64,000 nucleotides of DNA. Origin: Chiloscyllium plagiosum. Taxonomy: Eukaryota. The notes beneath the pieces were generated by a model that saw only the letters and a list, made by a program, of their open reading frames with translations, was not told the origin of the DNA and did no database searches. Positions 958-63,860 of the stretch are shown here, piece after piece. Position 1 is the first letter of the stretch; every line of letters begins with the position of its first letter. The stretch lies in contig NC_057715.1 in NCBI RefSeq assembly GCF_004010195.1, forward strand, positions 106,516,824-106,580,823, given 5' to 3'. Both the position numbers and the translations under genes were made by a program.

Positions 958-1840
958 CACACACACTATGAGGCATGCACACACGTACACACACTCTCGC
1001 ACGCGCGCACTCTCTCGCACGCACACACTCCTCTCTCCCCTCTCTCACCCACTCACTCACATGCACGCATACACACACACACACTCTATCCATAAGACCA
1101 TAAGACATAGGAGCGGAAGTAAGGCCATTCGCCATTCAATCATGGCTGATGAGCATTTCAACTTCACTTACCCGCATTCTCCCCGTAGCCCTTAATTCCT
1201 TGTGACATCAAGAATTTATCAATCTCTGCCTTGAAGACATTTAGCGTCCCTCTCACACACACTCACCCACTCTCTCTCCCTCTCTCTCTCTCTCTCTCAC
1301 CCTCTCACACACACTCACTCACACATTCTCTCTCTCTTTCTTTCTCACTCACATTCACACTTCTCAGTCTATGGGGTGAATTTGCATTTTCAGATTTGTA
1401 TTTGCAGATACACTCTATTTTGTTCAAAAAGCACACAGTCTGTAGCCAATCAGTCCATGTGACATGTTATAAATTCCTACATTGGAAATAGAATCAGTCC
1501 GACTCAAGGTTGGAACACAGACCGACTCTAACCTCACACCTTTAATGTCTTGTCTGAGCTAAGGTGTCACCTTTTTTTATAAAACCTTAATTTATCTCGC
1601 GAATGAGACTTGAAAGAAGTTCTGGGAATGAATCGAAACCTGCAACCATTCTAAGTGATTAAAGACTTAAACGCAATCAAGGTTTGTTCAATGCATCGCA
1701 TCAGTTGTATGACACTTTGATCTTTTGCTATAAATTCTGTGTCCTATGACCCTGCCCTACGAGCTATCTGATGAAGGAGCAGCACTCCGAAAGCTAGTAC
1801 TTCCAAATAAACCTGTTGGACTATAACTTGATTTTTAACT
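958..1840 (+). mobile_element. PLE family B 3' region with (CA)/(CT) microsatellite; a CR1 3' fragment (1088-1246, minus) is nested in it
   Basis: Ends in a hammerhead plus aaataaacctgttggactataac, shared with 57669-57758 and 62245-62368. 5' limit uncertain. Confidence 0.6.
1768..1796 (+). ncRNA. Minimal hammerhead ribozyme, PLE family B
   Basis: CTGATGA-A-GGAG(cagca)CTCC-GAAA-GC-TA; helix III is the palindrome AGCT. Confidence 0.75.
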
Positions 1841-2093
1841 CTTCCCAGGTATGGACCTTGTTAATAGCCAACTCTGCTAAGTTAACCTTAATGCTTTTCC
1901 CCAAGTGATGAAGGTTCGTAGAAACTTATGATCAGGAACCAACCTGCAATTAACTTCCAGGCTGGGTCTTTTGAATAAATAAAAGCTTGTTTGGTCTGTT
2001 TCCCTTTTCACACAAGATGTTACCCAGAGTCCAAAGTAATCTTTTGGTCACAGTTCCCAGTTCCCAGCTCCAAACCAAAAGTTATGAAATTTG

Positions 2094-2467
2094 TGGGCGG
2101 CACGGTGGCTCAATGGGCGATAGGGTAGCTTGATGGTTAGCACTGCTGCCTCCCAGCGCCAAGGATTCGGATTCAATTCCATCCTCTGGCGATTGGCTGT
2201 GTGGAGTTTGCACATTCTCCTTATGTCTGTGCAGGTTTCCCCCAAGTGCTCCAGTTCCTTTCCAGAGTCCAACGAAGTGTAGGTTGTGTGGATTGATCAT
2301 GGTGAATTACTCATAGTGTTCAGGGACATGTAGGTCAAGTGCAGCAGCCATGGGAAACGCAGGGTTACAAGCATAAGATAAGGGGATGGTTCTGGTTGGG
2401 ATGCTCTTTGGAGGTTCAATGTGGACCCCGCTGAATGGCCTGTTTCCACACTCTAGGGATTCTATGG
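2094..2467 (+). mobile_element. HE1-like V-SINE
   Basis: gggcggcacggtggctca tRNA-like head, tgtgtggagtttgcacattctcc V-domain, CR1-like tail. Confidence 0.85.
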
Positions 2468-2499
2468 ATCCAAAAGGGAAATAATGAGCCTTCAAACAG

Positions 2500-5400
2500 C
2501 ACAAAAATAGATCAGCAAGTAAATTGCATAGTGATCATAAGGAGGCTGCAAATGCGTTTTACATAGATTAAGTGAATGATCAAAAATTTGGTAGATCGAG
2601 TTTAATGAATTGTGAGCATGTTTACATTGGGGCATGAATTAAAATGTTGTATATCATTTAAATAGAGACATTGAAGCACTTTGAGGTACAGAGGGATCCA
2701 TATATCCTAGAGATAGAATAGAACAATACAGCCCAGAACAGGCCCTTTGGCCCTCGATGTTGCACTAACCTGTGAACTAATCTAAGCCCATCCCCCTACA
2801 CTATCCCATCCTCATCCATGCGCTTATCCAAGAATTGTCTAAATGCTCCTAATGTGGCTGAGTTAACTATGTTGGCAGGCAGGGCATTGCACGCCCTTAC
2901 CACTCTCTGAGTAAAGAACCTGCCTCTGACATCTGTCTTAAATCTATCACCCCTCAATTTGTAGCTATGCCCTCTTGTACTAGGAAAAAGACTTTCACTG
3001 TCTACCCTATCTCATCCTCTGATCATCTTGTATATCTCTTAAATTCCCCCTTAACCTTCTTCTTTCCAATGAGGGCAGACCCAAGTCTCTTAGCCTTTCT
3101 TAAGACCTTCGCTCCAGGCCAGGAAACATCCTGGTAAATCTCCTCTGCACCTTTTCCAATGCTTCCACATCCTTCCTGTAATGGGGCGACCAGAACTGTA
3201 CACAATATTCCAAGTGCAGCCACACTAGTGTTTTGTATAGTTGCAGCATGATATTACAGCTCTGGAACTCAATCCCTCTACCAATAAAGCCTAACACACC
3301 GAATGTCTTCTTAACAGCACTATCAACCTGGGTGGCAACTTTCAGGGATCTATGTACATGGACTCCAAGATCCCTCTGCGCATCCACACTACCAAAAATC
3401 TTTCCATTGACCCAGTATTCTATCTTTCTGTTATTGTTCCCAAAGTGATTCACCTCACATTTATATGTACTGAACTCCATTTGCCACCTCTCAGCCCAAT
3501 TCTGCAGTTTATCCAAGTTCCCCTGCAACCTGTAACATTCTTCCACACTGTCCACTACTCCACCAACTTTAGTGTCGTCTGCAGATTTACTAATTCATCC
3601 ACCTATGCCTGCATCTGAGTCATTTATAAAAATGAGAAACAGTAGTGGTCCCAAAACAGATCCTTGTGGCACACCACTAGTAACTGGACTCCAGGCTGAA
3701 TATTTTCCATCAACCATCACTCGCTGCCTTCTTTCAGAAAGCCAGTTTCTAATCCAAACTGCTAAATCACCCTCAATCCCATGCCTCTGCATTTTCTCCA
3801 ATAACCTACCATGTGGAACCTTGTCAAAGGCTTTATTGAAGTCCATGTACACCACGTCAACTGCCCTACCGTCATCCACATGCTTGATCACCTTCTCAGA
3901 AAACTCACTGAGGTTTGTGAGACATGATCTACCCGTGATGAAACCATGTTAACTATCTGCAATTAAATTGTTTCTTGCTAGATGATTATATATCTTTCAT
4001 AATCCTTTCCAAAACTTTTCCCACAGGTCTACAATTACCTGGGTCATCTCTATTGCCCTTCTTAAGCAAGGGCACAACATTTGCAACCCTCTAGTCCTCT
4101 GGTACTAAACCTGTAGACAATGATTGCTCAAAGATCAAAGCCAGAGACTCCAACATCTCCTCCCTAGCTTCCCAGAGAATCCTCTGATAAATTCCATCTG
4201 GGGACTTGTCTACTTTCACTTTTTCTAGAATTGGTACCACCTCTTCCTTTACTAACTTCGATCCTATCTAGTCTAATACCTTGTATCTCATTTTTCTCAT
4301 CTACAATATTCTCCTTTTCCTGAGTGAAAACTGATGAGAAATATTCATTTAGCCCCTTTCCGATCTCCACAGGGTCCACGCACAACTTCCCACTTCTGTC
4401 TTTGACTGGCCCTATTCCTACCCTAGTCATCTTTTTATTCCTCACATACCTATAGAAAGCTTTAAGGTTCTCCTTTATTCTACCTGCTAAAGATTGCTTA
4501 TGTCCTCTCTTTGCTCTTCTTAACTCTCTCTTTAAATCCTTCCTCGCTAATCTGTAACTCTCCATCACCCCATCTGAACCATTCATCTCATCATCACAAA
4601 AGCCTCCTTTTTCCGCTTACCAAGAGATGCAATTTCTGCAGTAAACCATGGTTCCCTTACCTTATCACTTCCTCCCTGACTGACAGGGACATACCTATCA
4701 AGGACACGCAATATCTGTTCCTTAAACCAGCTCCACATTTCGATTGTTCCCAACCCCTGCATTTTGCTACCCCATTCTATGCATTCTAAGTCTTGCCTAA
4801 TTGCATTATAATTGCACTTCCACCATCGATAACTCTTGCCCTGTGGCATGTACCTATCCCTTTCCATCGCTAAACTAAACGTTACGGAATTATGGTCACT
4901 CTCTCTAAAGTGCTCACCTACCACTAAATCAAACACCTGGCCTGATACATTACCAGCACCAGATCCAGTGTGGCCTCCCCTCCTGATATATGAATAGCAA
5001 AACGTTAGTATGCAGATTTAGCAAGAGATTAGAAAGGCGAAGGGAATGTTATCTTTTATTACAAAGGAATGGAATATAAAAATTGGAATTCTTTGCTGCC
5101 ATTATATAGGGCACTGGTGAGATATGCATTGAGGGTGCTGCAGTTTTAGTCTCCTTAATTAAGAAAGAATATGATTATATTAAACACAGTCCAGAGGAAG
5201 TTTACCTAAGTGTTGCCTGGGCTGGACAGGATTTTATAATAAGGTTGAACAAATACCTTTTTTGCATTGGATGGTGAAAGAATGAGTGGTAATCTTATTG
5301 CAACATGTAAGATCCTGAGGGGACCAGATGGGGTGGATGCTAAAAGAATGTTTCCATTTGTGGGAAAAATTGACGTAGGGGTCGTTATTTAAAAACGAGT

Positions 5401-5630
5401 GCCACATTTAAGGTGGAGATGAGGAAAAACAAATCTGCAGACTCTCTTCTGCAGAAAGAAGGGCTACTGAATATTTTTGAGGCAGAGATAGATAGATTTG
5501 TGATTCACAAGGAAGTCAAAGTGTTAAGGGGTTGACAAGGCAGCAGTGTTGAGGCCACAAATAAATCAATCATTATGGTGGATCAGGTTCAGAGACAGAA
5601 TGGCCCATGTATGCTATCATCTCAGAATCT
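2500..5630 (+). mobile_element. Old degraded CR1 LINE split by a younger antisense LINE
   Basis: RT C-terminal sequence at 2500-2710 resumes collinearly at about 4985. Confidence 0.6.
2712..4984 (-). mobile_element. HER1/CR1 LINE, 5'-truncated ORF2
   Basis: ORFs 4583-4936, 4164-4586, 3595-3891 ([39 protein letters not shown]) and 3100-3555; (ttcta) tail. Confidence 0.92.
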
Positions 5631-5637
5631 GCTCTTT

Positions 5638-5795
5638 CATAGGATCTCTACAATGTGGAAGCAAGACATTCGGCCCATTGAGTCCAACAAACCCTCCGAA
5701 CAGCACCCCACCCAGATTCACCTCGCCTGTAACCCTACATTTTCCATAGCTAATTCATCTCGCCTGCACATCCCTGGCCACTATGGGCAATTTAT
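5638..5795 (-). mobile_element. HE1-like SINE 3' fragment
   Basis: Reverse complement of the 3' half of the 2094-2467 copy. Confidence 0.65.
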
Positions 5796-6581
5796 CCCAT
5801 ATGTTTGCGATTGTATGTTCAGACGTGTGTGTTTGTAAGTCCTGACTTGCTGTCTTGGTTTCAAGATCCAAAAGGAGCACCTTTAAATGACTAAACTGCA
5901 GTCCTGAAACAAAATTAACTTGTTTTTACTACTTTCCAACCTCTCTGCATTGAAATTCCCCTTCTGTTTTTGCAGTGTTTTCTTGTTACTGATATGTGGG
6001 TGTTTACAACCATTTCTTGCCAGACAAAGAGAAGAAAAGTGTACTCAAGAACTTGTGTTGCCTTGTGATATTTCTGTCATCTCACAGGCTGAAGGTCATG
6101 GTTTCATGTGCAGAGACTAGCACACACAAAAATCAAGACTAACACATCAGCATTGAGGGTGTGCTGCACTATCAGAGGTATCACCTTTTCGGTGAAAATT
6201 TATTTAAAGCAAGACTCTTGTCAGTGGACCTCAAAGATTCCATTGCACCATGTCGAAAATCAGCAGGGGAGTCTGCGTCACTCTCCTGCCTAACATCATC
6301 TTTTGACCAACATCACACAAACAGCTTTACTGATCGTTATTCCACAGCTGTCTCCTTGACTGACCTCTGGCAGGATCTGTCAAAGTGCGGCTCCCTAAAT
6401 ACCATCAATGATTGCAATATTGAAACTATGCAACTGGCAGCAAAGCTCACTGTAGTGAGCTCATGAAAGGTATAGCGTTAAGTCTTTCTTTACTTCCGAG
6501 ATGTAGAGGGTGATACTGGCAGAAAGCTCAAATCATGTCGAATTAGAAGGGAAATGGAGCAGGTTTGAGGAAACCTAACCG

Positions 6582-6730
6582 CTTCAGGCTCTCTGCCTGT
6601 ATTCCTGGTGAAGGGCTTTTGCCTGAAACGCCGATTTTACTGCTTCTCGGATGCTGCCTGAACTGCTGTGCTCTTCCAGCACCACTAATCCAGAATCTGG
6701 TTTCCAGCATCTGTAGTCATTGTTTTTGCC
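6582..6730 (+). mobile_element. PLE family A-related 3' terminus with decayed hammerhead
   Basis: attcctggtgaagggcttttgcctgaaacgccg...tccagcatctgtagtcattgttttt; same end as 50245-50381. Confidence 0.75.
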
Positions 6731-6969
6731 ACAAATATAATTACATAACAATGGGACCAATAGCTAATTTTAAACCACCCCCTTGTGTCGAAAACAACTT
6801 TTCTGAAGTGGGGATTCTTATGAAGCAGGGAGATGTAGTTTTTTAATTCACTCATAGGACATGGGCACCGCTGACTAGGCCAGCATTTATTGCCCATTCC
6901 TAGTTGCCCTTAAGGTGGTGGTGAGCTGTTTTCATGAACCGCTGCAGTCCATTTGGAGCAGGTACACAC

Positions 6970-8290
6970 ACATAGAACATAGAACATATAACATTACAGC
7001 GCAGTACTGGGCCTTTGGCCCTCGATGTTGCGCCGCACTGTCATACTAATCTGAAACCCATCCCACCTACACTATTCCATGTACGTCCACTTGCCTATCC
7101 AATGACGACTTAAACTTGGCGAATCTACTACCAATGCAAGCAAAGCATTCCATACCCTTACTACTCTCTGAGTAAGGGTAAAGAAACTACCTCTGACATC
7201 TGTCTTATACCTATCTCCCCTCATTTTAAAGTTGTGTCCCCTCGTGTTTGCCATCCTTGGAAAAAGGCTCTCCCTGTCCACCCTATCTAACCCTCTGATT
7301 ATCTTGTATGTCTCTATTAAGTCATCTCTCAACCTACTTCTCTCTAACGAGAACAGCCTCAAGGCCCTCAGCCTTTCCTCGTAAGACATTCCTTTCATAC
7401 CAGGCAACATCCTCTGCACCCTTTCCAAAGCTTCCACATCCTTCTTATAATGCGGTGACCAGAATGTCCACAATACTCCAAATGTGGCCATACCAGAGCT
7501 TTGTACAGCTGCAGCATAACCGCCTGGCTCCGGAACTCAATCCGTCTATTAATAAGGGCCAAAACACTGTATGCCTTCTTAACAACCTGTCAATCTGGGT
7601 GGCAACTTTCAGGGATCTGTGTACATGGACACCGAGATCTCTCTGCTCATCTGCACTCCCCAAGAATATTACCATTAGCCCAGTACTTTGCATTCTGGTT
7701 ATTCCGACCAAAGTGAATCACCTCACACTTGTCCGCATTAAACTCCATTTGCCACCTCTCAGCCCAGCTCTGCATCCTATCTATGTCTCTCCCATGTCTC
7801 CTCCTGGCTCTTCTGAGCTCTCTTTTTAGGTCTTTCCTGACTTCCTTGTAACCCTCAAGCCTAACTGAGTTTTCACATTTTGTCCTAACATAAGCCTTCT
7901 TCTTGACCAGGGATTCCACTTCCTTAATAAACCACGGCTCACGCGTTCTATATCTTCCTCCCTGCCTGACAGGTACATACTTATCTAGGACACACAAGAG
8001 CTTTTCCATGAATAAGATCCACATTTTTAATGGGCTCAACCCCTGCAGTTTCCTTCCCCATTCTGCGCTTCCTAAATCTTTCCTCATTGCATCGTAATTT
8101 CCCTTCCCCCAGCTGTAAGTCTTGCTCGGTGGAGTACACCTATCCCTTTCCATCACTAAAGTAAACTTGACAGAATTGTGATTGCTGTCTCCAAATTGCT
8201 CACCTACTTCCAAATCTAACACCTGGTCAGGCTCATTATCCAGTACTAAACCTTAAGTGGCTTCGCCCCTTGTAGGCCTGTCTACATACA
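6970..8290 (-). mobile_element. HER1/CR1 LINE with a large internal deletion (junction near 7790)
   Basis: ORF 7647-8222 fuses LKRELRRARRRH directly to DIDRMQSWAERWQMEFN, skipping the RT core. Confidence 0.88.
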
Positions 8291-8291
8291 C

Positions 8292-8820
8292 AATGCTATT
8301 AAGGAGGGATTTCCAGGATTGTAACCCATTGACACTAAAGGTACAGTGATATATTTAAAAGTCAAGATGGTGGGTCACTTGGAAGGGAACTTGCAGGTGG
8401 TGGTGCTCCCATGTACCTGCTGCGCTTGGCCTTCTGGATGTAAGTAGTCATGGATTTGGAAGGTGCTTCAGAAGGAGCCTTTGTGGATTTCTGCAGTGCA
8501 TCTTACAGTTGATGCATACTAATGTGACTGAGTGTTGATGATGGAGGGAGTGGATGTGGTGCCAGTCAAGAGGAATGCTTTGTCCTGGATGGTACAAACT
8601 GCTTGCGTGTTGTTGGAGCTCCAAACAAGTGGGGAGTATTCCATTACAATCCTGACTTGTACCTTGTAGATGGTATACAGGCTTTGGTGAGTCAGGAGAT
8701 GAGTTACGAGCTGCACTATTCTTAGCCTTTGACTTGCTCTTGTAGCTACTTGTTTTTTGTGGTGAGCCCAGTTCAGTTTTTGGTCAATGGCTAATCCCAG
8801 GATGTTAATAGTGGGGGATT
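8292..8820 (-). mobile_element. Second LINE family (CR1/L2 group) 3' fragment; its tail continues at about 6850-6965
   Basis: TIYKVQVRIVMEYSPLVWS...TIQDKAFLLTGT; homologous to 39720-40625 and 44445-45375. Confidence 0.7.
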
Positions 8821-9182
8821 TGCCTCAAGGCCAGAAGCCTCAGTACAAGTCACAACGCCTCCAGAGATGTGGCTTGACATGTCTGGAAAGATTGCATACA
8901 ACTATCTAAACCTGCTGCAGCTTTACCTTTTGCTCTGTTCCTGTCTATTCATGAATTATCATCTGTGTAGTATTTCTTTTGGCAGTTGAATTGATCAATT
9001 GGAATCCTACAATGTCAGCTGCAACTTCTTTCACTCCAAATTATTCAGGTCAAAACACGATTGGACTCTAATAGATGCTGAATGTTCAGACTTATGGCTT
9101 ATTCACCTGGAATTCATTGATTTAACATCTTTTTCTTGAGCTATAACCACTGATAAATCACAGTCTCAGCATACAGCATTGG

Positions 9183-9664: not shown

Positions 9665-11452
9665 AAAAGGCCACATTTTGGTACATTTGTGCCTTGGTAT
9701 TCAATAGCACCCTCAATACCATTAGAGCATGGTGGGCGCTGTGGGGCCTGGAAGCTGTCCCTCCAACACCATTTCAATTTAACTCCTTCCTTGTTTTCCC
9801 ACTTTTTTTTGTTGCTGTGACAATGTCCCTGGTGTGCAGTGTTTGTAATTTAGACTTTGTTTAGTTCGCAGATTGGAATTTGAGTGATTTGTTGTGTTGC
9901 TGCATTTGCAGTTTGTAATTTGTTCACTGGCTGATTGGATAATTTGCCGCTGAGTTCTTTTTCACGTTAATTGGGCATTGCAGCAGCTGGAATGTCTTAC
10001 CTCCCCTCCACATGATCATTTCATTTGAGGTTCTTGTGGGTGTGTCCCAAACTCTGAGCCAAGAGATCCTGGTACAAGTCCCATCTGCTCCAGAGGTGTG
10101 CAATAATATCTCTGAACAGATTCATTAGAAAATATTATAAAGATTTGATTTAAATTTCTTTAGTTTTTCCCTCTTTTTGTAGTTAACATTAAGATCTGCC
10201 CCATGGGTGTTTTTTGTGTCTGTTAATTTGGAATTGAGTTTAATTTTAAAAAGTGAGCTGAGTTCTTCTCTAATTGAGAGTTGACTTCTGGAGGGAGAAA
10301 GGTTCCAGAAGGTACTGGTGATGGACGGAGGATTGGCTGACGACAGAAGGCAGGGATTTAGGGATAAAGGGATTGTAGTGATGACTAGTGGAGTTCTGTA
10401 GGGGTCATTGTTGGGACCACAACTGTTCATGTTATACATTAATGATCTGAACGAAGGAACTGAAGAATTGTTCCTAGGTTTGCAAGTGACACAAAGATTG
10501 ATGGAAAGACAGTTTGTGTTGGGGAATCGGGGAGGCTGCAGAGGCCTTGGGCAGACTGGGAGAGTAGACAAAGAGGCAGATGTAATATAATGTGGGAAAG
10601 TGTGAGGTTATGCATTTTGATAGGAAGAATAAAGATGCAGACTATTTTCTAAATAGGGAAACGCTTTGAAAATCTGAAGCACAAAAGAACCTGGCAGTCA
10701 ATTCATGATTCTCATAAGATTAACATGCAGGTTAGGAAGGCAAATGCAACATTAGAATTCATTTTAAGAGTGTTAGAATACAAGAGCAGAGATATACTGC
10801 TGAGACTGTATAAGGCTCTGATCAGATTGCATTTGGAATATTGTGAACAGTTTTGGACCCAGCATCAAAGAGATGGTTCGTTGGCACTGAACAGGATCCA
10901 AAGGAAGTTTACAGAACATGATCCTGGGATGAGGGGGCTGTCATATGAGGAGTGGTTGAGAACCTTGGGTCTATACTTTGTACAATTTAGAAGGCGGAGG
11001 TGTGAGGATCTCATTAAGACTTACAGAATGCAGCGAGGTCTGGATAGAGTGTAAATGGAGATTGTGTTTCAATTAGTGGAACAGGGAGAACTAGCCATTT
11101 GGATACAGAACTGGCTCAAAGGTACAAGACAGAGGGTGGTGGTGGAAAGTTGTTTTTCAGACTGGAGGCCTGTGACCAGTGGAGTGCCACAAAGATTGGT
11201 GCTGGGTCCCCTACTGTTCGTCATTTACATAAATGATTTGGATCCGAGTATAAGAGGTACAGTTAGTAAGTTTGCAGATGACACCAAAATTGGAGGTGTA
11301 GTGGACAGCGAAGAGGGTTACCTCAGATGACAACAGGATCTTGATCAGATGGGTCAATGGACTGAGAAGTGGCAAATGGAGTTTAATTCAGATAAATGTG
11401 AGGTGCTGCATTTTGGGAAAGCAAATCTTAGCAGGACTTATACACTTAATGG

Positions 11453-11592
11453 AGAAAGTGAGGTCTGCAGATGCTGGAGATCAGAGCTGAAAATGTGTTC
11501 CTGAAGAAGGGCTTATGCCCGAAACATCGATTCTCCTGTTCCCTGGATGCTGCCTGACCTGCTGCGCTTTTCCAGCAACACATTTTCAGCCG
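11453..11592. mobile_element. 140-bp hammerhead mini-PLE (family A) with inverted arm
   Basis: 15-bp TSD TTATACACTTAATGG at 11438-11452 and 11593-11607; ribozyme core at 11501-11528. Confidence 0.9.
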
Positions 11593-11697
11593 TTATACAC
11601 TTAATGGTAAGGTCCTAGGGAGTGTTGCTGAACAAAGAGATCTTGGAGTGCATGTTCATAGCTCCTTGAAAGTGGAGTCGCAGATAGATAGGATAGT

Positions 11698-12630
11698 TCA
11701 AAGTTTGTGCGAAGATTTGTAGCTCGGGTGCTCATTGCTGTGGTTCTGTTCGCCGAGCTGGAAGTTTTTGTTGCAAAAGTTTCATCCCCTGGCTAGGCGA
11801 CATCATCAGTGCTTGGGAGCCTCCTGTGAAGTGCTTCTTTGATGTTTCCTCCGGTGTTTATAGTGGTCTGTCCCTGCTGCTTCCGGTTGTCAGTTTCAGC
11901 TGTCCGCTGTAGTGGTTGGTATATTGGGTCCAGGTCGATGTGTTTGTTGATGGAGTTTGTGGACGAATGCCATGCCTCTAGGAATTCCCTGGCTGTTCCC
12001 TGTCTGGCTTGCCTGATGATACATACCATACATACCATACCACACTACCATACATCAGGAGCATCTCGGAACTGACAGCCAGACTACTGCGACCCCTAGG
12101 ACTCATAACGGCACACAAACCAACAGCCACGCTCAGACAACAACTCACCAGAACGAAGGCAAAACTAATGTAGTGTTCTAAATACCATGCAAGGACTGCA
12201 CAAAACACTATATAGGACAAACAGGAAGACAACTAACAATCCGCATATATGAACATCAACTAGCCACGAAACGCCACGACCAGCTATCCTTCGTAGCCAC
12301 ACACGCAGACAACAAGCAACATGAATTCGACTGGGACAACACTACTATCATAGGGCAAGCCAGACAGAGAACAGCCAGGGAATTCCTAGAGGCATGGCAT
12401 TCATCCACAAACTCCATCAACAAACACATCGACCTGGACCCAATATACCAACCACTACAGCAGACAGCTGAAACTGATAACCGGAAGCGGCAGGGACAGA
12501 CCACTATAAACACCGGAGGAAACATCAAAGAAGTGCTTCACAGGAGGCTCCCAAGCACTGATGATGTCGCCTAGCCAGGGGACGAAACGTTTGCAACAAA
12601 AACTTCCAGCTCGGCGAACAGAACCACAGC
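11698..12630 (+). mobile_element. PLE family C (Penelope/Poseidon-like), 5'-truncated, with inverted pLTR
   Basis: TLPYIRSISELTARLLRPLG...IPCKDCTKHYIGQTGRQLTIRIYEH...REFLEAWHS (GIY-YIG domain). Inverted copy at 11698-12016. 12-bp TSD AGATAGGATAGT at 11686-11697 and 12631-12642. Confidence 0.92.
12555..12594 (+). ncRNA. Minimal hammerhead ribozyme, PLE family C
   Basis: gca-CTGATGA-T-GTCGCCT(agcc)AGGGGAC-GAAA-CG-TT-tgc; helix I gca/tgc. A mutated inverted copy lies at 11773-11812. Confidence 0.75.
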
Positions 12631-23489: not shown

Positions 23490-23588
23490 ATAAATAAAGA
23501 AGTTGCTGGAAAAGCTCAGCAGGTCTGGCAGCATCTGCGAAGAGAAATCAGACTTAGCGTTTTGAGTTCGGTGACCCTTCCTCAGGAC
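23490..23588 (-). mobile_element. PLE family D terminus
   Basis: ttgctggaaaagctcagcaggtctggcagcatct...gacccttcctcag; homologous to 47015-47105 and 63795-63862. Confidence 0.7.
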
Positions 23589-26857: not shown

Positions 26858-26999
26858 AAAGTGAGGTCTGCAGATGCTGGAGATCAGAGCTGGAAACCTG
26901 AAGAAGGATTCCTGAAGAAGGGCTTATGCCCGAAACGTCGATTCTCCTGTTCCCTGGATGCTGCCTGACCTGCTGCGCTTTTCCAGCAACACATTTCCA
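26858..26999. mobile_element. 142-bp hammerhead mini-PLE (family A) with inverted arm
   Basis: 16-bp TSD GATCCTCTTAGAAGGG at 26842-26857 and 27000-27015. Confidence 0.92.
26908..26943 (+). ncRNA. Minimal hammerhead ribozyme, PLE family A (intact core)
   Basis: attc-CTGAAGA-A-GGGC(ttat)GCCC-GAAA-CG-TC-gatt. Confidence 0.8.
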
Positions 27000-28809
27000 G
27001 ATCCTCTTAGAAGGGGCGATCACAGTATGGTTGAATTTAGAACACAGATGGAGAGTGTGAAGGTAAAATCCACACCATGGTCCTGTGCTTAAATGAGGGA
27101 GACCACAATAGAATGAGGGCGGACTTGGCTAAACTAGACTAGAAACAAAGACTTTATGGTGGGACAGTTGACAAGCAGTGGAGGAGTTTCAAAGCAATTT
27201 TTCAAAGTACTCAGCAAAAATATATTCCAGTGAAAAGGAAGGAACGTAAGAAATGGGGAAATCTGCCTTGTGTGTCTAAGGAAATAAAGAAGACTATCAA
27301 ACTGAAAGAGAAGATATACAAAGTGGCCAGAAACAGCATGAAACATGGGAAAACTTTAAAGGTCAACAGAAAGCCACAAAAAAGAGCTATAAAGAAAAGT
27401 AAGATAGAACATGAGAAAAAACTAGCACAGAATATAAAGTTTCTAAAAATGTATAAAATGAAAAAGAGTGCCTAAAGTAAATGTTAGTCCTTTAGAAGAT
27501 GAGATGGGGCATTTAGTTATGGGTTATGAGGAAATGGTCAAGGCATTGAACAGGTATTTTGTATTGTTCTTCACAGTGAGGACACTAATAACATGCCAAT
27601 AAGTGACAAAGAGACGAAGGTAGGTGAGGATCTGGAAACAATCATTATTACGGAAGAGGTAGAGTTGAGCAGCTAATGGAGCTAAGGATAGAGAAGTCTC
27701 CTGGCCCTGATGGAATGCAACCCAGGGTACTAAAAGAGATAGCGAGAGAAATAGCAGGTGATAGTTGAAAGATGATTTGGAGTTGGAGACCATGCGTAGG
27801 GTCTCAAAATTTGTAGATGATATGAAGATGAGTGGCAGAGCAAAGTGTGCAGAGGACTGTTAAACTTTGCAGAGGGACATTGATATATTGAGTGAGTGGG
27901 CAAAGGTCTGATAGATGGAATACAATGTTAATAAATGTGAAGTCATACATTAATAAAAAGGATTATTACTTGAATGGTAAAAAGTTGCAGCATGCTGCTA
28001 TACAGAGGGTGTCCTTGTGCATGAATCACAGAAGGTTGGTCTGCAGGTACAACAAGTAATTAGGAAGGCAAATGGCATTTTGTCTTTCATTGCTAAAGGG
28101 ATTGAGTTTAAAAGCAGGGAGGTAATATTACAGCTGTACAGGGTGCTGGTGAGGCCAATCCTGGAGTACTGTGTGCAGAATTGGTCTCCTTACTTGAGAA
28201 AGAGTGTACTGACACTGGAGGAGGTGCAGAGGAGGTTCACTAAGTTGATCCCAGAGTTGAGAGGGTTGGTTTATGAGGAGAGACTGAGTAGACTGTGATT
28301 ATATTCATTGGAATTCAGAAGAATGAGGGGGATCTCATGGAAACATATAAAATTACGAAGGGAAAAGATAAGATGGAAGTAGAGAGGATGTTTCCACTGG
28401 CAGGTGAAGCTAGGACAAGAGGGCATAGCCTCAAGATTAGAGGAAGCAGATTTCGGACTGAATTGGGAAGGACTTCTTTACCCAGAGGGTTGTAAATCTA
28501 TGGAATTCCTTGCCTAGTGAAGTAGTTGATGCTACTTCAGTAAACGATTTTAAAGCTGAGGTGGATTTTTTTGAACAATAAAGGAATTAAGGGATACACT
28601 GAGAGCGTGGGTAAGTGGATCTGAGTCCGCGAAAAGATCAGCCATGATCTTATTGAGCGACAGAGCAGGCTCGAAGGGACGGATCCTAGTTCTTATGTTC
28701 TTATATCCTAAGATTCAATCCCATCATTCTATGAGGAGGTGTTTCTAATGCCATGAGTATGGTTTGATTTAGGAACAAAGTAAAAGTAGGAGGTTACTTA
28801 ACCTCTTAG

Positions 28810-29531
28810 TTGAAACTTTATTGCTGGAACAGCACAGCAGGTCAGGCAGCATCCAGGAAACTTCCATATCCGCCACAGATTCACCTGCACCTCCACCCAC
28901 ATCATCTACTGCATCCGCTGCAGCCGGTGTGGCCTCCTCTATATTGGGGAGACAGGCCGCCTACTTGCGGAGCGATTCAGAGAGCACCTCTGGGCCACCC
29001 GGACGAACCAACCCAACCACCCTGTAGCACAGCATTTCAACTCCCCCTCCCACTCCACCGAGGATATGCAGGTCATTGGACTCATCCACCGCCAAACCAC
29101 AACAACGCGACGGTCGGAGGAGGAGCGTCTTATCTTCCGACTGGGAACCCTCCAACCACAGGGGATGAACTTGGACTTCACCAGTTTCTTCATCCCCCCT
29201 CCCCCCACCTTGTCTCAGCCGAATCCCTCCAGCCCAGCACCGCCCTCCTGACCTGCAGTCTTCTTCTTGACCTCTCCGCCTCCATCCTACTCCGACCTAT
29301 CACCCTCACCTTGACCTCTTTCCACCTATCACATTTCCAACGCCCCTCCTCCAAGTCCCTCCTCCCTACCTTTTATCTTCTCCTGCTGAACACTCTCTGC
29401 TCATTCCTGAAGAAGGGCCTGTGCCCGAAACGTCGAATCTCCTATTCCCTGGATGCTGCCTGACCTGCTGTGCTGTTCCAGCAATAAAGTTTCAACTTTG
29501 ATCTCCAGCATCTGCAGACCTCACTTTCTCC
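28810..29531 (+). mobile_element. PLE family A (Neptune-like), 5'-truncated, with an open GIY-YIG frame at 28862-29251
   Basis: FTCTSTHIIYCIRCSRCGLLYIGETGRLLAERFREH...RLIFRLGTLQPQGMNLDF; inverted arm 28810-28857; 15-bp TSD TACTTAACCTCTTAG at 28795-28809 and 29532-29546. Confidence 0.93.
29403..29438 (+). ncRNA. Minimal hammerhead ribozyme, PLE family A (intact, perfect helix I)
   Basis: attc-CTGAAGA-A-GGGC(ctgt)GCCC-GAAA-CG-TC-gaat; predicted cleavage after the GUC ending at 29434. Confidence 0.85.
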
Positions 29532-29714
29532 TACTTAACCTCTTAGGTTTGATCCAGAATTCAGTCAAATCCCAGTCGATCTGTATCTTGACTCCAATTG
29601 CACTTGGTTTAGTATCTCATTACTACCTAATAGAAATCTAATTAAATCATCCCTGATGTTTTGTGTTGAACCCTGGCCTCAACAGCATTTTTAGGAAAGT
29701 GAGTTCCAATGTTC

Positions 29715-30525
29715 ACAGAAACTAGATCAATACAGCAGAGCAACAGGCCCTTCAGTCTATGATGTTGTGTAGAACATGACACTAAATCAAACTTCCGTCT
29801 GGTCTTGGTCGATGTCCCTCCATTCCTTGCTTATTCATGTGCTTATCTAAAAAGCCCTCATTGTATCTGCCTCCACCACTATTCCCTGGTAGCATGGGAT
29901 ACCTACCACTATCACTAATATCCTTACATACAGGTGGGAAAGACACCACTTTAACTGGGGCAACGCATCCATCCTAGGACAAGCCAAATTGAAACACGCA
30001 CAAGAATTCCAAGAAGCATGGCATTCCAACCAGAACTCTATCAACAAACACATTGATTTGGACCCCATCTATCACCCCCTGAGAAAATAAACAGGAAATG
30101 GCATCACTAACACAGGAAATGACATCACCAACCCAAAGAAACCTGAACACATAAATTGAAAGTGGGACATAACACCAGCGCTTCACCGGAGGCTCATTTA
30201 TGATGTTACCTATTGTGCTGACAAAACATCTGAAAACGAACCTTCCAGCTCAGCAAGCAAACTTACATCCAGGGATACCTACCACTCTCTTTGTAATAAA
30301 GTTGCCCGTCACATCTCCTTTGAACTTTCCCCCCTCACCTTAAATACATACCCCTTAGTATTAGATATTTCAATTCTGGAAAAAAGGATTCTGACTGCAA
30401 ACCCTGTCAAATGCATCTCATAATTTTATATATTTCAATCAAGTCTTCCCTCAGCCTCTGCCCCCTCCACCGAAAGCAACTCTAGTATTTCTAGCCTCTC
30501 CTTTTGGCTCATACCCTCTAATCCA
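29715..30525 (-). mobile_element. CR1 3' fragment interrupted by a PLE
   Basis: CR1 3' sequence on both sides of 29911-30271. Confidence 0.75.
29911..30271 (+). mobile_element. PLE family C-related 3' fragment with decayed ribozyme
   Basis: HHFNWGNASILGQAKLKHAQEFQEAWHSNQNSINKHIDLDPIYHPL; 15-bp TSD GGGATACCTACCACT at 29896-29910 and 30272-30286. Confidence 0.85.
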
Positions 30526-43329: not shown

Positions 43330-43486
43330 GAAAATGTGTTGCTGGAAAAGTGCAGCAGGTCAGGCAGCATCCAAGGAACAGGAGAATCGACGTTTCGGAC
43401 ATAAGCCCTTCTTCAGGACCTGCTGCGCTTTTCCAGCAACACATTTTCAGCTCTGATCTCCAGCAACTGCAGTCCTCACTTTCTCC
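43330..43486. mobile_element. 157-bp hammerhead mini-PLE (family A) with inverted arm, inside an old antisense CR1 relic
   Basis: 14-bp TSD TTATGATCACTGTT at 43316-43329 and 43487-43500. Confidence 0.92.
43385..43418 (-). ncRNA. Minimal hammerhead ribozyme, family A
   Basis: tc-CTGAAGA-A-GGGC(ttat)GTCC-GAAA-CG-TC-gatt on the minus strand. Confidence 0.75.
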
Positions 43487-46410: not shown

Positions 46411-47879
46411 GCTCAAGTCCAGTAGCAATTGATTTCAGTCTCTCTGGGGCTTTAGGGCAGAATGGCAACATTTTCTGCAGATTCCACGCAACTCTGTTAG
46501 ATGTGTTCCCTTTTGAGATGTAGGATAGGCAGATAATTTGTCATCACCCAATCTTTTAGAATTTAACGGAGCACTTCAGCTGAGGCAAACAAAAGCCGAG
46601 AGCACATGAATTGCGCCACCCTCATCAGAGCAGGTGTGGTCTTTCCCAGGCCCGCTCTGACCCCAGGAAACTGAGGATTGGGGTCCATTATACACAAGGA
46701 CTGACTGCAATAATCAGAATATTCTGCAAGCCCTAACATAGCAGTGAACTAAGAGCCTTGGCTTTAAATTGTTCCCAGTCTCTCATCAGTCCAACTACTT
46801 GCTGGAGTGGAATGTCATTACAATGATTTTTTTTGAGAATTAAGAAACAAAGTTTGCTAAGGGTGAAGCAATTGGAAGACACCAAAGCTGGAATTGCCTC
46901 ATTAAATCTGTAATTGCACATTTTCATGAGTCTTCTCTTATAGATAAAAAAAATTACAAAGAGCAGACTGGTGTTGTAAGAAATCTTTGTATTTTCCTTT
47001 TGTACATTATTCCAAAAACAGGAATCGCTGGAAAAGCTCAGCAGGTCTGGCAGCATCTTTGGAAAGAAAGTGAAGTTAATCTTTTGAGTCCAATGATCCT
47101 TACACATTATTACTTAGAAAGTGACTGAGATGTTACACAACACTATGAGCTTATGATAAAGTTTCGGAGATAGGTTGAAGAAATGAAGAGTGAAGATATT
47201 TTTCATTTTAACTCCCTCAGAACCTTAATGGGAATTAAAAGTGGACCCAAAGCATATGCAAGAGTTGATATTTATTGATTGATTTAGTTGATGTCAGCTA
47301 CTGTCACTGATATTATGTAAATCCTTTGAACTTCATGCTCTTCATAAGCTTCAGAAAATTTAAAAGAGGCTTCTTTTAACCAAACAGCAGGAAGAAATCA
47401 TTACCACAGAGTATGGTTGAAGCAAATAATATGGATAAATAAACAAGAGTGCTTACCAATTCAGGAGGGCAAAAGGAATTGAGGATTATGTTGATAGATT
47501 TAGACGAGGAAAGATGCAAGAGAGTTGGAAAGGAGCGTAAACATCAGCATGGACTAGTGGGCCAAGTGGCCTGTTTATCTGCTGTAATAACCTAATCTAG
47601 ATTCTTTGTTCAACACCTTAAAGAAGGCATGGAAATTGAAGAGGAAGGCACTTGATACAATCTCTTCAAATGTTCTGTTGATAATATTAACATCAAGTAT
47701 TTGGAAACTTGCTTGGTGAGAACAACAGTTAAATATAAAGGGTGAGACATAACATTGGACTGGTAGATCAGTGACATTGAAAATTGGATAATTCCTGAAA
47801 CAGGTGCTTGGTTTACCTGGTGGTGAGGGTGTGAATCAGACCTTATTTGCAAAGGGAGTACTACTTGTTGCACTCATCA

Positions 47880-51218: not shown

Positions 51219-51343
51219 GGAGAAAGTGAGGTCTGCAGATGCAGGAGATCAAGCTGAAAATGTGTTGCTGGTAAAGCACAGCAGGTCAGGCAGCATCCAA
51301 GGAACAGGAGAATCGACGTTTCGGGCATAAGCCCTTCATCAGG
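51219..51343 (-). mobile_element. 125-bp solo hammerhead mini-PLE (family A), no inversion
   Basis: 11-bp TSD AATTGAAGATA at 51208-51218 and 51344-51354; the element begins at cCTGATGA. Confidence 0.92.
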
Positions 51344-57668: not shown

Positions 57669-57758
57669 CACAGCCACCTGATGAAGGAGCGGCGCTCTGA
57701 AAGCTAGTGTTTCCAATGAAACCTGTTGGACTATAACTTGGTGTTGTGTGATTTTTAA
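57669..57758 (+). mobile_element. 90-bp solo hammerhead mini-PLE (family B)
   Basis: 10-bp TSD CTTTACTGCA at 57659-57668 and 57759-57768. Confidence 0.85.
57675..57709 (+). ncRNA. Minimal hammerhead ribozyme, family B
   Basis: cac-CTGATGA-A-GGAGC(ggc)GCTCT-GAAA-GC-TA-gtg; helix I cac/gtg. Confidence 0.8.
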
Positions 57759-58679
57759 CTTTACTGCAAAGGATGCAATGTTTGCTCTTGTGAACTATTC
57801 AGAAACTGATCTGTATAATTCATTGATCAAGATTGTTTATACTTTTGGATTTAATTTTTAATTCTAATCTGCTTATATGTTTGTTGTATTAGTGTTTAGT
57901 AATTAACAAACTCAGTTAACTTAAGAAAGCTTGGTTAAATTGGCTCTGTTTAAAATGCAAGTTAATTTAGGTGTGGAAGAAAGGTACCCACAAAGGAAGG
58001 GATTGATTGCTAAGTCAGCCTTGTTGCCATCTTCCAAGGCTGGGGGCGCATAATGAAGGGGACCAGGTAAATCACTCCTCACTGAGAACTTTACATGTTG
58101 GAGGAAAGCAACCAATACTTCAGCATTAGCCAGCTCTGAACCACTGTGGCAGAGCGGGATAGTGGGGTAGAACTTGTGTGCTTTGCTCAAGGTGGTTCTT
58201 CCTCTTCAAACACATCAAAACAGACAAAGATGGTAACAGGTAGACAGGAGATCAAAACTGAAACTCCTGGTTTTGTACTGTTGAGGCAGCCAGTTTAATG
58301 CCTTTCCTTTGCCTGCCTGTCCCCAGTTCAACCAACATATTCTGACATTAGACAGCTGTCTCCACCAGATCAAGAGGTCAAAACACAGAGCACAGTCTCA
58401 CTCAATCACTGGATCCTACCTGGCACTTATACACATTTCCTGGAAGAAAGATGGCAGTCTGATTTCCCCCAACACCAGCGTTGGGCTCATAAATCTAGAG
58501 CAGGAGAGGTCATTCAGTGTTAGGGTCTACCTGTCTATGAGCATGAAGGAGTGGAGAAAAGGTTCAGTCTTCACATGTGCCATGAATAATCCCACCTCCA
58601 ACTCTCAAACCAGACAAACTGTGAAGGACGTGTAGGTAAGGTCTGGCCCTGACTCATACATTGACAAGGCATATAAGGG

Positions 58680-59263
58680 GAGACAGGCCGCCTACTTGCG
58701 GAGCGTTTCAGAGAACACCTCTGGGACACCCGGACCAACCAACCCAACCACCCTGTAGCCCAACATTTCAATTCCCCCTCCCACTCCACCAAGGATATGC
58801 AGGTCTTTGGAATCCTCCATCGTCAGACCACAACAAAACAACGGTTGGAGGAAGAACGCCTCATCCTCCGGCTAGGAACCCTCCAACCACAAGGGATGAA
58901 CTCGGGTTTCACCAGTTTCCTCATTTCCCCTCCCCCCACCTTGTCTCAGTCAAATCCATCGAATTCAGCACCGCCTTCCTAACCTGCAATCTTCTTCCCG
59001 ACCTCTCCGCCCCCACCCCCGTCTGACCTATCACCCTCACCTTGACCTCTTTCCACCTATCACATTTCCGACGCCCCTCCCCCAAGTCCCTCCTCCCTAC
59101 CTTTTATCTTAGCCTGCTGGACAAACTTTCCCCATTCCTGAAGAAGGGCTTATGCCCGAAACGTCGATTCTCCTGTTCCCTGGATGCTGCCTGACCTGCT
59201 GCGCTTTTCCAGCAACATATTTCCAGCTCTGATCTCCAGCATCTGCAGACCTCACTTTCTTCT
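58680..59263 (+). mobile_element. PLE family A, 5'-truncated in GIY-YIG
   Basis: ETGRLLAERFREHLWDTRTNQPNHPVAQHFNSPSH...RLGTLQPQGMN; 15-bp TSD CAAGGCATATAAGGG at 58665-58679 and 59264-59278. Confidence 0.93.
59134..59169 (+). ncRNA. Minimal hammerhead ribozyme, family A (intact core)
   Basis: attc-CTGAAGA-A-GGGC(ttat)GCCC-GAAA-CG-TC-gatt, downstream of a GIY-YIG ORF fragment. Confidence 0.82.
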
Positions 59264-62179: not shown

Positions 62180-62368
62180 GTCAGAAGTCACACAACACGA
62201 GGTTATCGTCCAACAGGTTTATTTGAAATCATATTTGAAGGAGTTTCACCTGATGAAGGAGCAGAGGTCTGAAAGCTTATGATTTCAAATAAACCTGTTG
62301 GACTATAACCTGGTGTCGTGTGACCTCTGACTTTGTTGACCCCAGTCCAACACCAGCATGTCCACATC
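62180..62368. mobile_element. Family B mini-PLE with inverted arm
   Basis: Inverted arm 62180-62232, decayed hammerhead 62250-62278, forward arm extends about 37 nt further. Confidence 0.8.
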
Positions 62369-62598: not shown

Positions 62599-62676
62599 CT
62601 GTAAGGAAATGACGCTTCAGAAGGAAGTACTTGGTTTCGTTGCCAGCTTATTTCAGAAGTTGAGCGCTAAAAAGTC
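62599..62676 (-). promoter_or_regulatory. Candidate promoter/enhancer motif cluster next to the putative upstream exon
   Basis: AGGAAATGACG (ETS plus CRE half-site), AGGAAGT (ETS) and GGTTTCG (IRF-like) within about 40 bp. Motif presence only. Confidence 0.25.
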
Positions 62677-63375
62677 TCACACACACACAGACACACCCAC
62701 GCACGTACCCACAACCACACACACTCTCTCACACACATTCATACACAAACAGACACACTCACACATAGACACACAGACACATGCACACACTCTTACGCAG
62801 ACACACACTCTTACGCAGCCACACCCACATACATACCTCACCCACACACGCTCACACACAGAAACACATATGTATTCATGCACACACAGGCACACATACG
62901 CACTCATGAACACACACATGCACACAGACACTCATGCAAACAAATGCACACGTAATATAAACTCACACAGAGGCAAACACACACACGCATGCACTGACAC
63001 GTGTACACATAGAACATAGAATAGAAAAATACAGCACACAACAGGCCCTTCAGCCCATGATGTTGTGCCGAGGATTATTCTCTAATCTAAAATAAAATAA
63101 CCTAACCTACAGACCCCTCAATTCACTGCTGTCCATATGCATGTCCAGCAGTTGCTTAAATGTCCCTAATGACTCTGCTTCCACACACATAATGCACAAG
63201 GACACATGCACACAAACACACATACATGCACACTCAGAAGCACACATATACACATATACACATGCACACATCAACACACGAACATATACATGCACATGCA
63301 CAGACACACAAATACACACAGATACACATGAAAACAAACATGCATGTGTATACATGCACACACAAACACACACAT
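62677..63375. repeat. Degenerate (CA)n tract with a CR1 3' end (about 63006-63183, minus) inserted
   Basis: Direct reading; acatagaacatagaatag tail followed by CR1 3' UTR. Confidence 0.9.
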
Positions 63376-63824
63376 CAAATTAGAATTGTCAATCACAGCT
63401 CCACTTCTACAATTTATTCTTAATTTCTTTTGCAACAGCTTGCTTTCTAAAACAATAGTCACTGGGATGTAACACCTTTTAAAAAGTGAGGGAAAGCATC
63501 AAACTTGAGCAAAAAGCATTGAATGGCACAAAGATGAGTGGCAGGTCAGATGACTAATCAGATTGTAAGGTATGGCATAGAATGACATAAGATCAACCAG
63601 GAGGAAGAAAATAAAATACGATAGGAATGTAAAATTGAACAGCAAGAGTTACTGCAGGATGCTGAAAAGGAAAAGAATAGGTAAAGTGAGCGTTAGTCCT
63701 CTAAAGACTGTGAATAGGAAATTAAAAGGAAATAATAAAGAAATGTTAGATGAAATGAACAAATATTTTGTTTCAGAAATGGAAATTACAACATATCTGG
63801 CAGCACCTCTGCAGAGAAATCAGC

Positions 63825-63860
63825 GTAAACATTTCGGGTCCAGTGACCCTTCCTCAGAAC
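63825..63860 (-). ncRNA. Minimal hammerhead ribozyme, family D (slightly decayed)
   Basis: gtt-CTGAGGA-A-GGGTC(actg)GACCC-GAAA-TG-TT; related decayed copies at 23556-23585 and about 47075-47105. Confidence 0.65.

What the first reader, a model, noticed from the sequence alone, without database searches (positions are those of the whole stretch)
1768..63860. Four distinct minimal hammerhead families share one unusual architecture
Seen: family A CTGAWGA-A-GGGC/GCCC-GAAA-CG-TC (26912, 29407, 43389, 51315, 59138); B CTGATGA-A-GGAG/CTCC-GAAA-GC-TA (1768, 57678); C CTGATGA-T-GTCGCCT/AGGGGAC-GAAA-CG-TT (12558); D CTGAGGA-A-GGGTC/GACCC-GAAA (63828, 23556). Stem II sequences differ but keep pairing. 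All have one extra nucleotide after A9, only 3-4 bp of helix I, and in intact copies a loopless palindromic helix III (ACGT or AGCT). Established: this is the minimal type I hammerhead of PLEs, thought to cleave as a dimer. Inference: the covariation indicates selection for the fold, and ACGT versus AGCT could restrict which families can dimerise.
Basis: partly seen in the sequence, partly recalled or inferred. Interest (0 to 1): 0.75.

Follow-up and report, generated by a model that had tools for sequence, protein, structure and literature searches.

The report
Shark Penelope retroelement minimal hammerheads
The motifs are real, but they are the small RNA motifs, predicted to cut themselves, that are already known from the end repeats of Penelope-like jumping genes, here mostly broken leftovers of four element families in a shark genome; the fresher points are that one family's motif holds its gene's start codon and that this family's closest named non-shark relatives are in parasitic flukes, which would fit an old transfer between parasite and host.

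Summary
All 10 motifs are at the stated places (12 strict hits versus 0.15 by chance). They are the minimal hammerheads of Penelope-like element (PLE) end repeats. The extra nucleotide, short helix I, palindromic helix III and several families per genome were all described by Cervera and De la Pena 2014. A, B and D are tails of Neptune-type PLEs (A and D are relatives); C is Poseidon/Cercyon-type, with full two-hammerhead elements elsewhere in the genome. About 170,000-190,000 intact cores are estimated genome-wide; most copies are solitary and decaying. Covariation between subfamilies is real. The ACGT/AGCT idea holds only partly: it excludes B, while A, C and D share ACGT and differ at helix I's closing pair. 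In C the extra U is the middle of the ORF's start codon, as in Anolis PAc, and C's protein groups with fluke PLEs (99/99; AU p=0.025, post hoc; no other-vertebrate Poseidon in the tree). A and D copies start at the core, not at the cut site. This scan has noted shark PLE hammerheads, the 5' pile-up and the start/stop overlap before on other DNA; the fluke link was not in its index. New member of a known kind.

The parts
28808..29533 (+). Family A: 5'-truncated Neptune-type PLE copy. Inverted tail piece 28808-28861, GIY-YIG end, 3' region, hammerhead, tail; 15-bp target-site duplication
   Evidence: 149,539 first-look candidates for this protein in G000, 150 scored, 97-100% identical
28862..29248 (+). 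GIY-YIG endonuclease C-terminus of family A (Pfam PF01541, E 4.8e-05 for frame 28814-29248)
   Evidence: a longer copy L015 adds RT (RVT_1) and a CX4CxxC linker
29407..29434 (+). Family A min-HHR, C3 to C17, structurally intact (4-bp helix I, ACGT)
26912..26939 (+). Family A min-HHR in a short copy joined to its inverted tail (unit 26853-27003, 16-bp TSD)
43389..43416 (-). Family A min-HHR in a short inverted unit 43320-43487 (10-bp TSD); helix I 5' strand comes from the inversion joint
51315..51342 (-). Family A min-HHR in short copy 51217-51346 (11-bp TSD), starting 4 nt before C3
59138..59165 (+). Family A min-HHR at the end of a 5'-truncated copy 58677-59263 (15-bp TSD; 88% like 28946-29532)
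11451..11590 (+). Unlisted family A stub: inverted tail plus hammerhead at 11501 (ACAT, decayed), 15-bp TSD. Further unlisted, decayed A copies have C3 at 6605+, 14754+, 18918-, 22575-, 22999+, 50267+, 52549-, 52573+
1768..1796 (+). Family B min-HHR (AGCT, A17) at the end of a PLE 3' region that runs from about 1400 to 1830
   Evidence: Neptune-type EN remnants upstream in L023, L025, L035
57678..57706 (+). Family B min-HHR (stem II G.U at pair 1) in short copy 57662-57762
62250..62278 (+). Unlisted family B copy (helix I closing pair broken), with inverted tail 62180-62231
12182..12574 (+). Family C: end of Poseidon/Cercyon-type PLE ORF (GIY-YIG-like), stop codon TAG at 12572-12574 inside loop II of the hammerhead
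12558..12591 (+). Family C min-HHR (ACGT, U17, G.G in stem II). ATG at 12564-12566 is A9, the extra U and G10.1, and is the ORF start of the element
11696..12021 (-). Inverted 5'-truncated partner of the family C copy, with decayed hammerhead 11776-11809
29954..30268 (+). Older, decayed family C piece
63828..63857 (-). Family D min-HHR, decayed (ATGT, helix I closing pair lost); copy 63789-63868
23556..23585 (-). Family D min-HHR, dead (G12 and U16.1 changed); copy 23488-23590
47013..47101 (-). Third family D piece lacking the start of the core

Best explanation
The motifs are minimal type I hammerheads in the end repeats (pLTRs) of four Penelope-like retrotransposon families, scattered as mostly dead, 5'-truncated insertions, and they are predicted to cut only as a protein-assisted dimer inside the transcript of a tandem element. 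Shown: the motifs, their link to PLE ORFs, 10-16 bp target duplications, inverted 5' pieces, full family C elements with two hammerheads about 2.5 kb apart, compensatory changes between subfamilies, and neutral decay of B, C and D copies. Inferred from published PLE work: the tandem element's RNA carries two hammerheads. They swap strands, so each ACGU or AGCU pairs with its twin to make a 4-bp helix III, each helix I forms between the two copies, and cutting follows base 17. The fold is too weak alone and likely needs the element's own protein, as shown for Anolis PAc. Reverse transcription starts in the tail about 75-125 nt past C3 and mostly uses uncut RNA, so most insertions keep one whole core and have no partner in cis. 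In family C the upstream cut would fall 28 nt after the A of the start codon and would part the AUG from the ORF, so cutting would end translation of that RNA (inferred, untested). Family identity in a dimer is set by helix III plus the helix I closing pair, likely as a by-product of each lineage drifting while keeping its pairs.
For: GIY-YIG ORF upstream of A (Pfam E 4.8e-05) and RT in longer copies; CX4CxxC linker in A, D and B relatives and none in C, matching Neptune/Nematis versus Penelope/Poseidon in Craig et al. 2021. Four of six family C stretches fetched show hammerhead-ORF-hammerhead on one strand, with the ORF aligning from residue 1 at the in-hammerhead ATG to a fluke PLE protein at 42-53% (L209, L210, L213, L214). 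TSDs found for 7 of 10 units tested. Published consensus identical in architecture. Covariation: C pair 2.3-1.3 is GC 12, UA 7, CG 4 of 26 distinct rows, covariation score 0.230 versus 0.166, 0 of 500 shuffles as high; B 2.3-1.3 CG 26, UA 5 of 38; A versus D 2.1-1.1 CG versus UA and stem II pair 4 CG versus UA. Core versus tail substitution: B 0.074/0.082 (p 0.68), C 0.055/0.059 (p 0.86), D 0.122/0.098 (p 0.36). Of 147 random copies with a whole core, 23 have a same-family, same-strand neighbour within 4 kb. Modelled homodimers are marginal (-4.3 to +6.3 kcal/mol against two free stem II hairpins). PAc's hammerhead cuts only with protein, and uncut RNA is the main insertion substrate.
Against: No cleavage was measured here. 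In family A the core is better kept than the tail (20/855 versus 224/3417, p 3.6e-07). I attribute this to search bias (the core had to align) and to subfamily splits in the tail, but selection on some A copies is not excluded. Two of the five whole-structure measures (pairs with a double change; further pair types) did not beat shuffles. No full two-hammerhead element was recovered for A, B or D (L215 and L216 show none; long copies fall in assembly gaps). PAc is reported to be cleaved in a single-motif RNA with protein, so a dimer may not be needed. Eight of nine Xenopus retrozyme dimers did not cut in vitro.
Confidence: 0.9

Rival explanations
1. The palindrome and the helix I closing pair are a selected self-recognition code that keeps co-resident PLE families from cutting each other's RNA.
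For: With both helices counted, homodimers form 4+3-4+3-4 pairs, while A-C and C-D form no helix I and B pairs only 2 of 4 in helix III with all others (+4 to +19.5 kcal/mol). The three ACGT families use three different closing pairs (CG, AU, UA).
Against: Dimers would form in cis, so partner choice is set by proximity. A-D can still form one helix I. With four palindromes and four closing pairs most random family pairs are incompatible. CG dominates across animals (29 of 41, my count). A has many subfamilies sharing one code.
Confidence: 0.12
2. The hammerhead works as a monomer on the element's protein. The palindrome folds as a tight turn or pairs only transiently, and the motif's main job is to control translation or mark the RNA start, not to cut unit-length RNA.
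For: PAc RNA with one motif is cut when protein is added, and cutting is not needed for insertion. In C the motif holds both the stop and the start codon. In A, 64 of 109 copies that reach the core end within 10 nt of C3, and only 2 of 139 start exactly at the cut site.
Against: 15.2-16.2 stays self-complementary across lineages (CG, GC here; also UA, AU), which a dimer explains directly. Dimers and trimers, not monomers, of the S. mansoni motif cut without protein.
Confidence: 0.3
3. The short hammerhead-plus-tail units are independent non-autonomous elements (retrozyme monomers or SINE-like) that copy themselves, not truncation products of full PLEs.
For: Many units are 130-250 bp, start at the core and have their own TSD. 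Li et al. 2026 report retrozymes derived from pLTRs, including in one cartilaginous fish.
Against: 5' ends are spread over about 20 nt and joints with the inverted tail differ from copy to copy. No tandem array of the units is in the window. Sequences match the ends of ORF-bearing copies.
Confidence: 0.15
4. Some copies have been taken over by the host to cut or regulate host transcripts.
For: 8 of 21 window copies are structurally intact; reads from one RNA run cover the motif; A cores look better kept than tails.
Against: B, C and D decay neutrally and CpG positions decay in all families. 92% of laid RNA reads run on into unlike flanks, as expected of scattered copies in other transcripts, and no common read start or end was seen (low-power test).
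Confidence: 0.04

Closest known systems
[quoted passage not shown]
   Same: Same core, one base between 9 and 10.1, G10.1-C11.1, short helix I, palindromic 15.2-16.2, several families per genome, mostly solitary and truncated, some in inverted pairs. Fig. S3 rows for Clonorchis (Cercyon) closely resemble family C, and Acropora (Neptune), Nematostella and turtle rows resemble A and B.
   Different: No cartilaginous fish in Table S1 or Fig. S3. Numbers here (about 54 strict cores per Mb) are far above the 4,000-9,000 per genome given for coelacanth and Xenopus.
Poseidon element PAc of Anolis carolinensis (Frangieh et al. 2024, PMC11167929; search passages and second half of main text read)
   Same: ORF starts at stem II, cut site 26 nt past the start codon (28 nt in family C), two reverse-transcription start sites that define the tail (family C copies end near C3+74 and C3+111).
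   Different: PAc was tested in vitro; nothing here was. The passages I read do not mention a stop codon inside the PAc motif. PAc's sequence was not in hand for the tree.
Neptune/Nematis and Penelope/Poseidon PLE clades (Craig et al. 2021, PMC8557442; 12 of 29 search passages read)
   Same: C-terminal GIY-YIG, 5' truncation, inverted 5' copy, 30-40 bp tail, linker zinc finger in A, B, D and absent in C.
   Different: Neptune versus Nematis was not resolved by a tree.
Non-LTR retrozymes (Li et al. 2026, bioRxiv 10.64898/2026.07.22.740005; parts 1-3 of 5 read, supplements closed)
   Same: Type I hammerheads derived from PLE pLTRs; present in the one cartilaginous fish sampled.
   Different: Retrozymes are defined as tandem repeats with a hammerhead in each unit; the window's copies are solitary or head-to-head.

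Membership tests
PLE minimal type I hammerhead | Core CUGANGA ... GAAA ... UH with stem II closed by G10.1-C11.1 | tested here: met
   intact 11-nt core in 57/86 A, 16/38 B, 9/22 C, 5/20 D sampled copies
PLE minimal type I hammerhead | One extra base between 9 and 10.1 | tested here: met
   31 of 31 strict hits, offset left free
PLE minimal type I hammerhead | No stable helix III; palindromic 15.2-16.2 | tested here: met
   Majority CG in A and C, GC in B; in D CG 6, CA 8, TG 4 of 20, i.e. CpG decay of CG
PLE minimal type I hammerhead | Lies in the pLTR of a PLE | tested here: met
   C: both ends of full elements. A, B, D: 3' of GIY-YIG ORFs or remnants; upstream pLTR not recovered
PLE minimal type I hammerhead | Self-cleavage (low, as dimer or with protein) | not testable with these tools
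   Only folding energies and read-end scans without signal
Neptune/Nematis PLE (A, B, D) | RT, then CX2-5CxxC linker, then C-terminal GIY-YIG | tested here: met
   A: RVT_1, CX4CxxC and GIY-YIG in L015. D: same linker in L107, 45% identical to A. B: CX4CxxC in L035, 27-31% to A
Neptune/Nematis PLE (A, B, D) | RT phylogeny within Neptune | not tested
   No named Neptune reference fetched
Penelope/Poseidon PLE, Cercyon-like (C) | C-terminal GIY-YIG without linker zinc finger; single ORF between pLTRs | tested here: met
Penelope/Poseidon PLE, Cercyon-like (C) | Groups with trematode PLEs | tested here: met
   Shark plus fluke clade 99/99 in a 30-row tree. The name Cercyon is taken from Table S1's label for Clonorchis and Schistosoma PLEs; I did not check that the fetched fluke proteins are that family
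Non-LTR retrozyme | Head-to-tail tandem units, each with a hammerhead | tested here: not met
   No such array among 13 tandem-repeat rows; same-strand neighbours in the random sample are mostly different subfamilies
Canonical type I hammerhead (Rfam models) | Match to an Rfam hammerhead model; 6-bp helix I | tested here: not met
   No hammerhead among 13 matches at E<=10; helix I is 2-4 bp

The most novel reading that the evidence does not exclude
Family C is a fluke retrotransposon that jumped into the ancestor of carpet sharks, bringing a hammerhead whose extra base doubles as the start codon. It then grew to tens of thousands of copies, and its ribozyme is a protein-triggered switch that shuts off translation of its own mRNA.
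Probability: 0.4. Interest if true: 0.6.

Novelty: new member of a known kind. Interest (0 to 1): 0.28.

Why it matters
The architecture itself adds little. Three by-products could matter. (1) If the fluke link holds with fuller sampling, it is a parasite-host transfer of a ribozyme-bearing retrotransposon into a vertebrate lineage; my searches found no report of it (held library only). (2) Family C gives young, full-length elements with natural compensatory variants and a start codon inside the ribozyme, so the open question of what PLE hammerheads do (process RNA, gate translation, or nothing) can be tested directly. (3) The pile-up of 5' ends at the core in A and D, and not at the cut site, is a genomic record that templates were mostly uncut.

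Tried and rejected
Rfam scan: no hammerhead model matched. Very long open frames in G000 hits (up to 2477 aa) were runs of N, not giant ORFs. A fossil of cleavage at the cut site in family A: 2 of 139 copies start exactly at +28 and 7 at +28 to +30; of the six young ones printed, two keep the core start upstream and are internal deletions, so I do not count a peak. My first 5'-end histogram used one reference per family and was inflated by subfamily differences; it was redone with 16 references. B and D upstream references remain thin, so their peaks are less sure. A spliced-template explanation for A (acceptor-like AG 29 nt before C3) got 1 end at -29. An ATG in family A loop II opens only a short frame by my reading of the sequence and is absent from the 29407 subfamily. 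Sequencing runs: no RNA holder listed in the index; one single-cell polyA run (X21, about 2 in 100 reads read) gave no common read start or end on A or C, and X22 laid no reads; this is no evidence either way on cutting. G000_C3_L209 was badly stitched (long branch) and left out. The careful 46-row tree and its clade test did not finish; the 30-row tree dropped most unnamed rows and two long-branch arthropod groups. No structure prediction or complex job was run. A full-length A element was sought and not recovered.


Full report
Observation. A strict scan finds 12 in the window against 0.15 (maximum 1) in 60 Markov simulations. Family C's stem II has a G.G mismatch, and 57678 has a G.U in place of G10.1-C11.1. 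Rfam does not score these motifs.

Host and abundance. The window lies in G000, 3.56 Gb. Family C proteins are 88-91% identical to predicted proteins of Chiloscyllium punctatum and Hemiscyllium ocellatum, so the host is inferred to be a carpet shark. I took 100 stretches of 10 kb at round coordinates on contigs C1-C36. In the first 60 (572,526 non-N bases) there are 31 strict cores against 2-5 in simulations; all 31 have exactly one extra base and U16.1, neither required. That extrapolates to about 170,000-190,000 per genome. In all 100 (958,744 bases) there are 272 tail-bearing pieces (A 139, B 66, D 44, C 23; inverted partners count twice), 147 with a whole core.

What carries them. Family A at 29407 ends a 726-bp insertion with a 15-bp target duplication, an inverted tail piece and a GIY-YIG ORF end. 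A longer copy adds RT and a CX4CxxC linker. A D relative has the same linker and 45% identity to A; B relatives have frameshifted remnants 27-31% identical to A with the linker. By the criteria in Craig et al. 2021 (passages) these are Neptune/Nematis-type. Family C lacks the linker and is Penelope/Poseidon-type. Four of six C stretches fetched show two same-strand hammerheads 2.3-2.5 kb apart around the ORF. So the four families are three Neptune-type lineages, two of them close, and one Poseidon-type.

Is the architecture unusual? No. Cervera and De la Pena 2014 list the base between 9 and 10.1, G10.1-C11.1, the short helix I, the palindromic 15.2-16.2 and several covarying families per genome. 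Their Fig. S3 has 41 loopless rows: 29 CG, 5 GC, 5 UA, 1 AU, 1 CA by my count, and S. mansoni has both CG and GC families. No cartilaginous fish is in their Table S1 or Fig. S3. One paper in the held library has Penelope, hammerhead ribozyme and shark, and there shark refers only to the name. Li et al. 2026 sampled one cartilaginous fish for retrozymes; their supplements are closed and may list such families.

Covariation and selection. Between related subfamilies the pairs change together. In C the helix I pair 2.3-1.3 is GC in 12, UA in 7 and CG in 4 of 26 distinct rows; percentage paired and covariation score beat all 500 shuffles, while the two measures that count pairs or types did not. 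In B the same pair is CG 26, UA 5 of 38; A and D differ by CG versus UA at 2.1-1.1 and at stem II pair 4. After insertion the copies decay: core and tail substitution rates are equal in B, C and D (p 0.68, 0.86, 0.36), and CG at 15.2-16.2 goes to CA or TG. A is the exception (0.023 versus 0.066, p 3.6e-07), probably from search bias and tail subfamily splits, though this was not shown. The fold is therefore selected in the transposing lineages, as the 2014 paper argued.

The dimer code. In a strand-swapped dimer both helix III and both helices I are intermolecular (established geometry). Modelled on real copies: B pairs 2 of 4 in helix III with every other family; A, C and D pair 4 of 4 with each other; A-C and C-D(L104) form no helix I; A-D forms one of two. 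Homodimers are only -4.3 to +6.3 kcal/mol against two free hairpins and were not the lowest-energy fold in the three cases printed. Since dimers would form in cis and most random combinations clash, I see no sign that exclusion is selected.

Family C's coding overlap. A9, the extra U and G10.1 spell ATG (12564-12566). The frame aligns from residue 1 with a Dicrocoelium PLE protein (16 of 36 identical, E 1e-04) and runs on into the ORF in junction copies: 7 of 15 loci kept a core start, 6 of them in frame. The previous ORF's stop codon lies in loop II. PAc of Anolis has the same start arrangement, cuts only with protein, and inserts from uncut RNA. The cut would fall 28 nt after the A of AUG, so cutting would remove the start codon; that this is a switch is inference.

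Where copies begin. With 16 references, 64 of 109 A copies that reach the core end within 10 nt of C3 (38 joined to an inverted tail, 26 to unique flank): 0.29 per 10 nt against about 0.03 further up. Among young, unpaired, unique-flank copies it is 12 of 36 (0.17 against 0-0.09). D gives 20 of 24, B 16 of 44, C only 4 of 22. Summed contig depth in run X15 rises about threefold at C3 for A and shows no such step for C; for A, subfamily differences upstream contribute. There is no clear peak at the cut site. The likeliest reading is run-off at the 5' end of an uncut RNA after reverse transcription began at the upstream tail, helped by fold-back at the short inverted repeat around the core; neither is shown. 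Several earlier notes of this scan report the same pile-up.

Fluke link. Among the best 120 of 546 hits to a C RT-thumb segment, the named non-shark proteins are all flatworm: Trichobilharzia 65%, Clonorchis 64%, Opisthorchis and Dicrocoelium 63%, Schistosoma 61%, tapeworms 47-58%, against 69% for Stegostoma. In a 136-row quick tree the shark rows sit in a clade (SH-aLRT 97) whose other named members are flukes. In a 30-row careful tree sharks plus flukes get 99/99, with tapeworms outside; holding flukes and tapeworms together costs 23 log units, AU p 0.025. Limits: the group was named after the tree was seen; many neighbours are unnamed (only 13 of 30 looked up had an organism name, none a non-shark vertebrate); no teleost, lamprey or lizard Poseidon was in hand. 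The C hammerhead also resembles the Clonorchis rows of Fig. S3. Six literature searches found no report of such a transfer (of the papers listed I read only passages of PMC5055719, on shrimp), and the scan's index had none.

Verdict. A correct catch of a known feature in a new host group. Interest 0.28, carried by the fluke lead and the testable start-codon overlap, not by the architecture.

Noticed in passing
window 20559-21644 (-): Intact single-frame 362-aa rhodopsin-type GPCR ORF (Pfam 7tm_1, E 3e-49). Decayed A and D copies (22575-, 23585-) lie 0.9-1.9 kb upstream on the same strand.
   Followed up: no
P0003: A predicted Chiloscyllium punctatum MAP3K7 isoform ends in a family C endonuclease fragment (90% identical): possible exonisation or a gene-model artefact.
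   Followed up: no
window 1755-1767, 57665-57677; L105, L106 upstream of C3; window 29365-29406: Pyrimidine-rich tract plus AG (splice-acceptor-like) just before helix I in many B (4 nt before C3) and D (about 12 nt) copies and about 29 nt before C3 in one A subfamily, recalling the D. virilis intron that ends at helix I.
   Followed up: partly
L058, L096, L087, L122, L066, L075; window 11451-11590, 14714-14883, 43320-43487: Head-to-head pairs whose joint lies in or next to the core; 63 of 147 whole-core copies have an opposite-strand same-family neighbour within 4 kb.
   Followed up: partly
L013 about 490-1260: A 30-bp unit of the family A 3' region expanded into a long tandem run between the endonuclease stop and the hammerhead.
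   Followed up: no
L037 1045 (+): A further min-HHR type (GGGCG/GACCC stem, different tail) not matching A-D: more families exist in the genome.
   Followed up: no
window-wide (e.g. 2713-4212, 12685-13298, 24121-24732): Many fragments of a CR1/L2-like LINE RT, into which several PLE stubs are inserted (clade name recalled, not tested).
   Followed up: no
L205: Family A RT frame jumps directly into the hammerhead region (internal deletion of thumb and endonuclease) with an inverted tail at the 5' side.
   Followed up: no
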